A program made the position numbers. DNA of 4,181 bases from a virus (Duplodnaviria; Heunggongvirae; Uroviricota; Caudoviricetes), in IMG/VR virus record IMGVR_UViG_2537561716_000020, one strand, 5' to 3'. Of this stretch, positions 3,001-4,181 are shown one piece after another (within the stretch, counting starts at the first letter, position 1; the number at the start of each line of letters is the position of its first letter).

Positions 3001-4181
3001 GACGGTGTCTGTTGTCCTGGCTGTGCTTAATGATATTATTGATTGGTCGGTGTTATTTTTTGTTGCTACAATCGTTTTTTTTATTATTTTGAAGTTCAAC
3101 TGGAAATATAACGCCTGGGCTAAATCTATATATGAAGTTGGCATAGTTTTATCAGCCATAGCATTATTTTTCCATCTATGGCCAGGGTTTCACAATCCTG
3201 TAGTGCTAAATTCTGTTACTGTTGGCCCTCAAAGTACTCCCTATACAATGTATTTTAATTTTGATAAAGCGCTGGTGCCATTTTTGTTAGTCCTGTGTAC
3301 ATCTTCTTTGTTTAAAAAAGAAGTAAAATCAGAAGTGTCTTTGTGGAAGTGGGGGGCTCTGTCGCTCTCTGTTCCTCTTATCCTGTTTTTGGCTGTTTTT
3401 TTTGGTGGATTAAAGCCAGAGATTCATTTTCCTGAGTGGTTGCCAGAGTTTATATTGGCTAATTTGTTTTTTGTGTCTCTGGCAGAGGAATCATTATTTA
3501 GAGGGTATATTCAATCACGGCTATCAGAAGTAACGTCTCCATTGGTTGCATTAATTGTGGCGGCTTTGTTGTTTGGTTTTTATCACTATTCAGGTGGTGC
3601 TTTACTTGTATTATTTGCCACGTTATCTGGTGTTGTGTATGGATTGTCATGGATGTGGAGTGGGCGTTTGTGGGTTGCCACCCTTTTCCATTTTGGTTTG
3701 AATCTGTGTCACTTGTTATTCTTTACCTATCCATTTTTAAAACATAATTGATTTTTTCTATGGTTTTAAATTTATAAGACTGAAAAATAGCAGGACGTGA
3801 CATTTGCATGAAAAATATGCACGGCAAAGCATTTACGTACGTAAAAAATCAGGTATGCTGTTAAGAGTGGTTATTTCGCCGCATAGCTTGACCCCGCCTC
3901 TGAGCGGGTTTTTTGTGCCCGCAAAGTAGCGCAGTGCGTTAAATGTGCTGGTAGTTATTAATACAGGTCTTTCAGCTTGCTGGCTTTTTCGACAAGAGTT
4001 ATTGGTGTGTCACGTTAACCGGAAAGGGTAAAAAGACATGCTGAAACAGCAGGATATGACAGAAACCGCCAGAGTTGTGTTTGATGAATTAAGCGTCACC
4101 GAACCGGCGACGGTCGGGGAGATTGCGCAGAATACGTACCTTTCACGCGAGCGCTGCCAGTTAATACTGACCCAGCTGGTT

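What the first reader, a model, noticed from the sequence alone, without database searches (positions are those of the whole stretch)
3748..3922. Promoter-like element, short leader and strong terminator downstream of the CPBP gene: alternative late-promoter/terminator module or small RNA
The interval has weak promoter-like hexamers (TTGATT 3748-3753, TATAAG 3773-3778, 19-bp spacer), then about 130 nt containing an 18-codon ORF (3808-3864, MKNMHGKAFTYVKNQVCC, no good RBS), two dyads, and an intrinsic terminator. This resembles the lambda arrangement of a late promoter, a short 6S-like transcript and the tR' terminator. The terminator's GCGGG arm (3904-3908) has a second possible partner CCCGC at 3918-3922, giving two mutually exclusive hairpins. 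If this is the real late-promoter module, the CPBP cargo is inserted between Q and the late promoter instead.
Basis: inference. Interest (0 to 1): 0.45.

Follow-up and report, generated by a model that had tools for sequence, protein, structure and literature searches.

The report
Phage late promoter displaced by cargo

Summary
The window is prophage Sp4 of E. coli O157:H7: hokD, DUF968, rusA, Q, a CPBP cargo gene, then the finding.

The real element is narrower, at 3832-3914, and aligns base for base with the annotated pR'/qut/first terminator of Stx phage 933W and with the nmpC-essD spacer of K-12 DLP12.

- Promoter: -35 TTTACG (3832-3837), 16-bp spacer, -10 TATGCT (3854-3859).
- Inferred start: about 3865/3866.
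- Terminator: hairpin 3893-3908 plus T6, at +28 to +49. The terminated RNA would be about 48 nt.

The window's Q is 79% identical to Q933W. A 14-bp palindrome over the -35 (3832-3845) matches the Q helix-turn-helix type in 97 of 97 loci, which marks it as the probable Q-binding site.

In 80 of 111 related loci, 0.5-3 kb of cargo separates Q from this promoter.

Verdict: an ordinary new copy of a known module.

The parts
2401..2781 (+). Q antiterminator gene. The longest ORF starts at GTG 2401; the RefSeq start is ATG 2410, which overlaps the rusA stop.
   Evidence: Pfam PF06530, E = 8.7e-52. It is 79% identical to Q of phage 933W and 32% identical to Q21, with a PDB 6P18 match at E = 1e-7.
2782..3831 (+). 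Low-GC cargo cassette inserted between Q and the late promoter. The CPBP/CAAX-protease-family CDS is at 2933-3751, and promoter-like sites of its own lie at 2842-2914.
   Evidence: Pfam Rce1-like, E = 1.4e-19. GC is 0.32-0.39 against 0.45-0.53 in the flanks. The cassette occurs as one unit in 572 of 5426 complete E. coli genomes. Homology to other pR' loci starts at 3832.
3748..3778 (+). Rejected as the promoter.
   Evidence: The scan did not call it. It lies inside cargo-specific DNA, and TATAAG is removed by a 6-bp deletion in relative RM8082.
3808..3864 (+). The 18-codon ORF. Rejected as a gene.
   Evidence: It overlaps the -35, palindrome and -10 of the conserved promoter. The frame is not conserved in homologous loci. 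It has no ribosome-binding site (sequence).
3832..3845 (.). Perfect 14-bp palindrome TTTACGTACGTAAA, followed by an A-tract to 3848. Probable Q-binding element.
   Evidence: the repeat finder I1. The box type matches the Q helix-turn-helix cluster in 97 of 97 loci, whatever the Q-to-promoter distance. It occupies the position of the phage 21 QBE.
3832..3859 (+). Late promoter pR': -35 TTTACG (3832-3837), 16-bp spacer, -10 TATGCT (3854-3859).
   Evidence: It aligns with the 933W feature annotated 'pR' putative late promoter' (TTTACG, 16 bp, TATCAT) and with K-12 DLP12 upstream of essD.
3865..3866 (+). Inferred transcription start: the G/A of TAAGAG, uncertain by about 3 nt.
   Evidence: Sy et al. 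2020 (PMC7547250) place the Sp5 start 258 nt upstream of the tR' 3' end. That maps to the G/A of TAAGAG in 933W and was transferred to the window by alignment.
3866..3882 (+). Conserved initial transcribed region AGTGGTTATTTCGCCGC. It could form a 5' hairpin (3867-3871 with 3878-3882) and presumably carries the pause/Q-loading signals.
   Evidence: The 19-mer TAAGAGTGGTTAYNTYGCC occurs once in the window, against 0.01 expected, and in at least 120 viral contigs. Fold. 933W annotates 'qut' here.
3893..3914 (+). Promoter-proximal intrinsic terminator: CCCGC / loop CTCTGA / GCGGG plus T6, at +28 to +49.
   Evidence: Scan hit. The hairpin is -9.0 kcal/mol. A hairpin plus T-run is kept in 65 of 66 variants, with varying loops and some entirely different stems. 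It is homologous to the first annotated terminator of 933W.
3918..3922 (+). Alternative CCCGC partner. Not conserved; rejected as functional.
   Evidence: A downstream partner for the 3' arm exists in only 2 of 66 variants.
4038..4181 (+). Start of the first gene downstream of the promoter: a small TrmB-like ORF (ECs_1086 in Sakai), cut by the window end.
   Evidence: RefSeq annotation. It is conserved downstream of the block in phiP27 and Stx2 phages. A second terminator follows it just outside the window.

Best explanation
Window 3832-3914 is the cognate late promoter (pR') and promoter-proximal terminator of this prophage's Q antiterminator. The module is of the Q933W/QuuD type, which belongs to the Q21 superfamily (Pfam PF06530).

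Proposed mechanism (inferred, not measured here):
1. Host sigma-70 RNA polymerase starts at about 3865/3866 from TTTACG-16-TATGCT.
2. Without Q, it stops at the small hairpin plus U-run at +28 to +49, releasing an RNA of about 48 nt.
3. When Q (2401-2781) is made from the early rightward transcript, it binds the 14-bp palindrome over the -35 and spacer.
4. Q loads onto polymerase held in the conserved initial transcribed region.
5. The modified polymerase ignores this terminator and later ones, and transcribes ECs_1086, the tRNAs, the esterase and the lysis and late genes.

The CPBP gene is cargo inserted between Q and pR'. The same terminator would also end CPBP transcripts.

Shown here: homology, geometry, conservation, and pairing of the box with the Q type. 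Inferred: the start site, Q binding to the palindrome, and terminator efficiency.
For: - Homology to an annotated module. Window 3832-3914 aligns over 82 nt with the 933W features annotated pR', qut and first rho-independent terminator, with the same geometry. It is near-identical to the K-12 DLP12 nmpC-essD spacer, with the same box and -10.
- Related Q proteins. The window's Q is PF06530, 79% identical to Q933W and 32% identical to Q21.
- Experimental anchor. The Sp5/Sp15 pR' start was mapped by dRNA-seq 258 nt upstream of tR' (PMC7547250). That places +1 in TAAGAG.
- Same layout in phage 21. That record annotates the QBE between -35 and -10 and a terminator at +3 to +50.
- Box pairs with Q. 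The box at -34 to -21 falls into 5 classes that match 5 Q helix-turn-helix clusters in 97 of 97 loci. This holds across up to 15 spacing classes per cluster, while downstream terminator types are shuffled among clusters.
- Cargo is usual. 80 of 111 loci carry 0.5-3 kb between Q and this promoter. This includes phage 434 and PA-2 with a reverse porin gene, and phiP27 and Stx2a_1447.
- Terminator is conserved. A hairpin plus T-run is kept in 65 of 66 variants, with different loops and some replaced stems.
- Uniqueness and context. The motif and the palindrome each occur once in the window. Late genes lie downstream.
Against: - There are no transcript data for this locus.
- Both hexamers match the consensus at only 4 of 6 positions, so the consensus scan did not list the promoter.
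- The hairpin is weak: -9.0 kcal/mol, and the whole-RNA fold has z = -1.6.
- In Sp5/Sp15 the homologous hairpin is passed often enough to give the 258-nt StxS precursor. Its efficiency as a terminator is therefore unknown.
- I could not identify a clear -10-like sigma-dependent pause element in the initial transcribed region.
- The box-Q pairing could partly reflect linkage. The cargo between them is non-homologous between phages, so homologous recombination there would be rare.
- No orphan Hfq-binding peak was reported at this position of Sp4.
- In Sakai Sp4 the lysis genes downstream are inverted or disrupted, so the module may no longer serve a working late operon.
Confidence: 0.85

Rival explanations
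1. A promoter at 3748-3778 makes a 140-165-nt leader or small RNA, possibly encoding an 18-residue peptide, that ends at the terminator.
For: The hexamers, ORF and terminator exist at the stated coordinates.
Against: The pair has a 19-bp spacer and G at the last -10 position, and the scan did not call it. TATAAG is deleted in RM8082 while the downstream promoter box is intact. The stretch is cargo-specific and absent from all other loci that share the terminator. The 146-nt fold has z = -0.23. The ORF has no ribosome-binding site and runs through the conserved promoter. No Rfam family matches.
Confidence: 0.04
2. The hairpin is simply the transcription terminator of the CPBP cargo gene, and the promoter-like block is an inert relic in a decaying prophage.
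For: No other terminator lies between the CPBP stop (3751) and 3893, so CPBP transcripts would end there. Sp4 is defective, with IS elements and inverted lysis genes. A decayed copy exists in RM8082.
Against: The block is conserved independently of CPBP. It follows reverse-strand cargo, or sits directly after Q, in most loci. In this window the box, -10, initial transcribed region, hairpin and T-run are all intact, and Q is an intact ORF. Serving as the CPBP terminator is compatible with the main explanation.
Confidence: 0.08
3. The roughly 48-nt pR' transcript is itself a trans-acting, Hfq-dependent regulatory RNA, like StxS. That, rather than late-gene control, would be why it is kept.
For: StxS shows that pR'-derived RNAs can gain such roles. 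The predicted RNA has a 5' hairpin and a terminator hairpin with a U-tail. The block is present in 3696 of 5426 complete E. coli genomes, many in defective prophages.
Against: There is no similarity to the functional 74-nt StxS 3' fragment; homology to 933W ends at about +49. No Hfq orphan peak is listed at this Sp4 position. No Rfam hit. The conserved part is explained by promoter and Q-loading functions.
Confidence: 0.1

Closest known systems
pR'/qut/terminator region of Stx phages 933W, Sp5 and Sp15 (source of the StxS RNA)
   Same: The Q proteins are homologous (79% identity). The -35, spacer length, -10 position, initial transcribed sequence and first hairpin plus T-run match in register.
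   Different: In 933W the promoter overlaps the end of Q (a 21-bp gap); here it lies 1085 bp downstream, behind a CPBP gene. The palindrome centre differs (ACGTACGT against ACGATCGT). 933W has a second terminator at +258 that defines StxS. The window has no StxS-like sequence, and its second terminator lies after a small ORF outside the window.
K-12 DLP12 nmpC-essD intergenic region, and the same region in phages 434 and PA-2
   Same: The box (TTTACGTACGTAAAAAA), -10 (TATGCT) and initial transcribed region are almost identical. Cargo also lies between Q (quuD) and the promoter. The DLP12 lysis operon is reported to be under Q-type antiterminator control (PMC7918800).
   Different: The cargo there is a reverse-oriented porin gene (nmpC/lc), and the promoter is directly followed by the holin gene. 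Here the cargo is a forward CPBP gene, and a small ORF, an HTH gene, tRNAs and an esterase precede the lysis genes.
Phage 21 pR' cassette (Q21; structures 6P18 and 6JNX)
   Same: The Q superfamily is the same (PF06530). A Q-specific element lies between -35 and -10, and a terminator lies within the first 50 nt of the transcript.
   Different: The Q proteins are only 32% identical. The Q21 QBE is a direct repeat (ATTGAGCA AATGAGCA), whereas the element here is a perfect palindrome. The phage 21 hairpin is much stronger (-20 against -9 kcal/mol), and there is no cargo between Q21 and its promoter.
Lambda pR' - 6S RNA - tR'
   Same: The logic is the same: a constitutive promoter, a short terminated RNA, and Q-dependent read-through into late genes (established knowledge; summarised in 10.1101/651190).
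   Different: The Q family is unrelated (lambda Q is PF03589, as named). The lambda RNA is 194 nt (my own knowledge) against about 48 nt here. There is no sequence similarity.

Membership tests
Q-dependent late regulatory cassette, Q21/Q933 (PF06530) type | A Q gene of the family upstream on the same strand | tested here: met
   PF06530, E = 8.7e-52. 79% identity to Q933W.
Q-dependent late regulatory cassette, Q21/Q933 (PF06530) type | A sigma-70 promoter homologous to a mapped or annotated pR' | tested here: met
   TTTACG-16-TATGCT aligns with the 933W pR' annotation. The Sp5 start was mapped by dRNA-seq in PMC7547250.
Q-dependent late regulatory cassette, Q21/Q933 (PF06530) type | A Q-binding element in the promoter, specific for the Q type | tested here: inconclusive
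   The palindrome class matches the Q helix-turn-helix cluster in 97 of 97 loci, and it occupies the position of the Q21 QBE. Binding itself cannot be tested here, and linkage is a caveat.
Q-dependent late regulatory cassette, Q21/Q933 (PF06530) type | A sigma-dependent pause element (-10-like) in the initial transcribed region | tested here: inconclusive
   The initial transcribed region is highly conserved and carries the 933W 'qut' annotation. No convincing -10-like hexamer is present; TATTTC at 3873-3878 lacks the final T.
Q-dependent late regulatory cassette, Q21/Q933 (PF06530) type | An intrinsic terminator shortly downstream of the start | tested here: met
   Hairpin 3893-3908 plus T6. 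Conserved in 65 of 66 variants.
Q-dependent late regulatory cassette, Q21/Q933 (PF06530) type | Late (lysis and structural) genes downstream | tested here: met
   Holin, lysozyme, terminase and portal genes lie downstream in PV15-279. They are rearranged in Sakai Sp4.
Q-dependent late regulatory cassette, Q21/Q933 (PF06530) type | Q-dependent read-through of the terminator | not testable with these tools
   This needs a reporter or in vitro transcription assay.
StxS-type pR'-derived regulatory RNA | Sequence homology to the 74-nt functional StxS fragment | tested here: not met
   Similarity to 933W ends at about +49 (query 7-89 only). The StxS fragment lies near +185 to +258 of 933W.
StxS-type pR'-derived regulatory RNA | Hfq binding and a stable small RNA | not testable with these tools
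   No orphan Hfq peak is listed at this Sp4 position in Tree et al. 2014, Table S2. That is weak negative evidence only.
Curated sRNA families (AgvB, AsxR, Esr41, STnc100, IsrK and others in Rfam 15) | A covariance-model match | tested here: not met
   No hit at 3748-3922, even at E <= 1.
Small-protein gene (18-codon ORF) | A ribosome-binding site and conservation of the reading frame | tested here: not met
   No ribosome-binding site. The frame crosses the promoter and is not shared by homologous loci.

The most novel reading that the evidence does not exclude
The 14-bp palindrome over the -35 may be the Q-binding element of the Q933W/QuuD group. If so, these Q proteins would load as a symmetric dimer, unlike the direct-repeat site of Q21. 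There would be at least five Q/site specificity classes: ACGWWCGT, GCGGTCCGC, GCGTACGC, GTTATAAC and GGAATTCC. Because Q acts in trans, the gap between Q and its site would have become a frequent landing site for cargo, much of it defence-like and reverse-oriented. That departs from the textbook picture of the Q gene immediately followed by pR'.
Probability: 0.5. Interest if true: 0.5.

Novelty: new member of a known kind. Interest (0 to 1): 0.25.

Why it matters
For this window, the result places the late promoter correctly and shows that the CPBP gene lies outside the Q-controlled late transcript. CPBP would therefore be expressed from its own promoter or from early transcription, not as a late gene.

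More generally, automatic annotation leaves this element unmarked in thousands of E. coli genomes. The block is found in 3696 of 5426 complete genomes. Papers that look for pR' right after Q can miss it when cargo intervenes.

The pairing of palindrome class with Q type gives a simple sequence rule for matching a Q allele to its promoter. That is relevant to predicting Shiga toxin expression from Stx phages with different Q alleles.

Tried and rejected
- Rfam at E <= 1 gave nothing in the interval. The only hits were weak isrK and rsmX matches at 163-249.
- The alternative hairpin (3904-3908 with 3918-3922) is the predicted minimum-energy fold for a 60-nt RNA from this window. It is not conserved, occurring in 2 of 66 variants, and it can only form after the termination point.
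- I considered that the RNA might be one of the Pas sRNAs of EPEC (preprint 10.64898/2026.05.13.724894). Those flank the esterase gene or lie next to the holin. No sequences were available, so this is unlikely but was not formally excluded.
- I looked for an Hfq-bound orphan RNA at this Sp4 position in Tree et al. 2014 and found none.
- I looked for a rival promoter in 2782-2926. Only generic AT-rich matches lie there, with no copy of the box or the initial transcribed motif.
- A search of paper texts for the conserved motif found only a Q-deletion primer for the phi-Stx2dact phage. It shows the motif lying next to the deleted Q gene in that phage.

Full report
**Context.** The window is 100% identical to E. 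coli O157:H7 chromosomes. It corresponds to prophage Sp4 of strain Sakai, genes ECs_1080 to ECs_1086. The gene order is hokD (4-159), a DUF968 protein (987-2036), RusA (2049-2420), a Q antiterminator (2401/2410-2781), a CPBP/CAAX-protease-family membrane protein (2933-3751), the finding, and then a small TrmB-like ORF from 4038. Downstream of the window lie an HTH gene, the tRNAs ileZ, argN and argO, an esterase, and the lysis and structural genes.

**Observation.** The promoter hexamers are weak: the spacer is 19 bp, the last -10 base is G, and the consensus scan did not list them. The proposed 146-nt leader folds no better than shuffled sequence, z = -0.23. The terminator is a 5-bp GC stem with a 6-nt loop and six T, at -9.0 kcal/mol. 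It is real but small.

**What the interval is.** It begins at about 3832-3860 and runs through the terminator into the small ORF.
- The 82-nt core at 3832-3913 matches 296 phage records and 3696 of 5426 complete E. coli genomes.
- In phage 933W the aligned bases are annotated as 'pR' putative late promoter' (TTTACG, 16 bp, TATCAT), 'qut', and the first 'possible rho-independent terminator'.
- The window has TTTACG (3832-3837), a 16-bp spacer, TATGCT (3854-3859), the invariant TAAGAGTGGTTA, and then the hairpin and T-run in the same register.
- K-12 DLP12 carries an almost identical copy between nmpC and essD. Its lysis operon is reported to depend on a Q-type antiterminator (PMC7918800).

**Start site.** Sy et al. 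2020 mapped the Sp5 and Sp15 pR' start by dRNA-seq, 258 nt upstream of the Term-seq 3' end at tR' (PMC7547250). Counting back from the T-run of the second 933W terminator puts +1 on the G/A of TAAGAG. By alignment that is window 3865/3866. This is an inference, uncertain by about 3 nt. The hairpin is then at +28 to +43 and the T-run at +44 to +49, which gives a terminated RNA of about 48 nt. That RNA is predicted to form a 5' hairpin (3867-3871 with 3878-3882) and the terminator hairpin.

**Is it the cognate promoter of this Q?**
- The window's Q is PF06530, 79% identical to Q933W and 32% identical to Q21, the structurally solved member.
- The phage 21 record annotates the same layout: -35, a QBE between -35 and -10, the start, a pause element at +2 to +8, and a terminator at +3 to +50.
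- I collected loci carrying the initial transcribed motif: at least 120 viral contigs plus reference phages, giving 74 distinct 120-nt variants.
- All have a palindromic box at -34 to -21 followed by an A-tract. In the window it is the perfect 14-bp palindrome TTTACGTACGTAAA.
- The box falls into five classes: TTTACRWWCGTAAA, GCGGTCCGC, GCGTACGC, GTTATAAC and GGAATTCC. These match five clusters of the Q C-terminal helix-turn-helix region in 97 of 97 loci.
- The match holds across up to 15 different Q-to-promoter spacings per cluster. By contrast, the terminator-tail types downstream are shuffled among Q clusters.
- This points to the box as the Q-binding element, and to this promoter as the target of this Q.
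- Two caveats apply. The loci were gathered by a motif search, and non-homologous cargo between Q and the box would itself suppress recombination there.

**Cargo between Q and pR'.** In 111 loci with a recognisable Q upstream, 31 have the promoter within 44 bp of the Q stop. The other 80 have 0.5-3.0 kb in between. The window's 1085 bp belongs to a class of 7 loci.
- The inserts are diverse and mostly on the reverse strand. They include a KAP NTPase, a GmrSD_N/DUF262 protein, an AAA_15/21 ATPase encoded next to a 346-aa ORF that looks like a C5 DNA methyltransferase (not scanned against any library), DUF6731 proteins and putative lipoproteins.
- Other examples are the porin gene of 434, PA-2 and DLP12, a GIY-YIG protein in phiP27, and two unknown genes in Stx2a_1447.
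- The CPBP cassette is low in GC, has promoter-like sites of its own, and occurs as one unit in 572 complete genomes.
This is the usual state for this phage group.

**Terminator.** A hairpin followed by at least four T, starting at +44 to +58, is present in 65 of 66 distinct variants.
- Loops differ freely. A few loci have entirely different stems, for example CCCAC/GTGGG or CCCTGCC/GGCGGGG.
- The structure is therefore conserved, not merely the sequence.
- Its efficiency is unknown. In Sp5 and Sp15 enough polymerase passes the homologous hairpin to make the 258-nt StxS precursor.
- In the window's lineage the next terminator (GCCTTCAGTCCTGAAGGC plus T6) follows the small ORF just outside the window.

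**Rejected parts of the finding.**
- The hexamers at 3748 and 3773 lie in cargo-specific DNA. In the 87%-identical cassette of strain RM8082, a 6-bp deletion removes TATAAG, while TTTACGTACGTAAAAAATCAGGTAT is untouched.
- The 18-codon ORF crosses the -35, the box and the -10, has no ribosome-binding site, and is not conserved.
- The second CCCGC (3918-3922) gives the predicted best fold for a 60-nt RNA from this window. A comparable partner exists in only 2 of 66 variants, and it lies beyond the termination point.
- No Rfam family matches the interval.
- No orphan Hfq site is listed here in Sp4.
- Similarity to 933W stops at about +49, so there is no StxS homologue.

**Verdict.** This is a new copy of a known kind of element: the late promoter and first terminator of a Q933W/QuuD-type antitermination cassette, displaced about 1.1 kb from Q by a CPBP cargo gene. 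By-products of more general interest are the palindromic, Q-type-specific box and the frequent use of the Q-to-pR' gap as a cargo site.

Noticed in passing
window 3832-3845, and loci L001-L126 at -34 to -21 from the start site: A palindromic box over the -35 and spacer comes in five sequence classes. They match the Q helix-turn-helix cluster in 97 of 97 loci. The solved Q21 site is a direct repeat, so a palindromic site would imply a different binding geometry.
   Followed up: partly
between the Q stop and pR' in loci L007-L126 (window 2782-3831): 80 of 111 loci carry 0.5-3 kb of varied cargo in this gap, mostly on the reverse strand. It includes a KAP NTPase, a GmrSD_N/DUF262 protein, an AAA_15/21 ATPase next to a methyltransferase-like ORF (not scanned), and DUF6731 proteins. 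The gap looks like a defence or moron hotspot.
   Followed up: partly
window 163-249 (+): Just downstream of hokD there are weak, sub-threshold Rfam matches to isrK (24.9 bits, E = 0.019) and rsmX. The stretch has two hairpins, the second a clean terminator (AACCCGCTTCGGCGGGTT plus a T-run).
   Followed up: no
L003 10522-10539 (window coordinates about 4221-4238, just outside the window): A second intrinsic terminator (GCCTTCAGTCCTGAAGGC plus T6) sits right after the small TrmB-like ORF, so that ORF is bracketed by two terminators. The ORF is annotated as frameshifted in PV15-279 but as an intact CDS (ECs_1086) in Sakai.
   Followed up: partly
L129 (strain RM8082) 1600-1900: This is a decaying copy of the module. 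The box and -10 are intact, but the initial transcribed motif and the T-run are mutated, and a reverse-strand gene follows.
   Followed up: no
L131 (Sakai Sp4) 23366-26376: In Sakai the holin, endolysin and spanin genes downstream of this promoter are on the opposite strand, next to pchA and IS629. There, the late transcript from this promoter can no longer reach the lysis genes. In PV15-279 the holin gene is still on the forward strand.
   Followed up: no
window 2401-2420: The Q start (ATG 2410, or GTG 2401) overlaps the end of rusA (stop at 2420), which suggests translational coupling.
   Followed up: no
window 2842-2914: Three overlapping sigma-70-like sites lie in the AT-rich spacer upstream of the CPBP gene. 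They are consistent with a cargo gene expressed from its own promoter in the lysogen.
   Followed up: no
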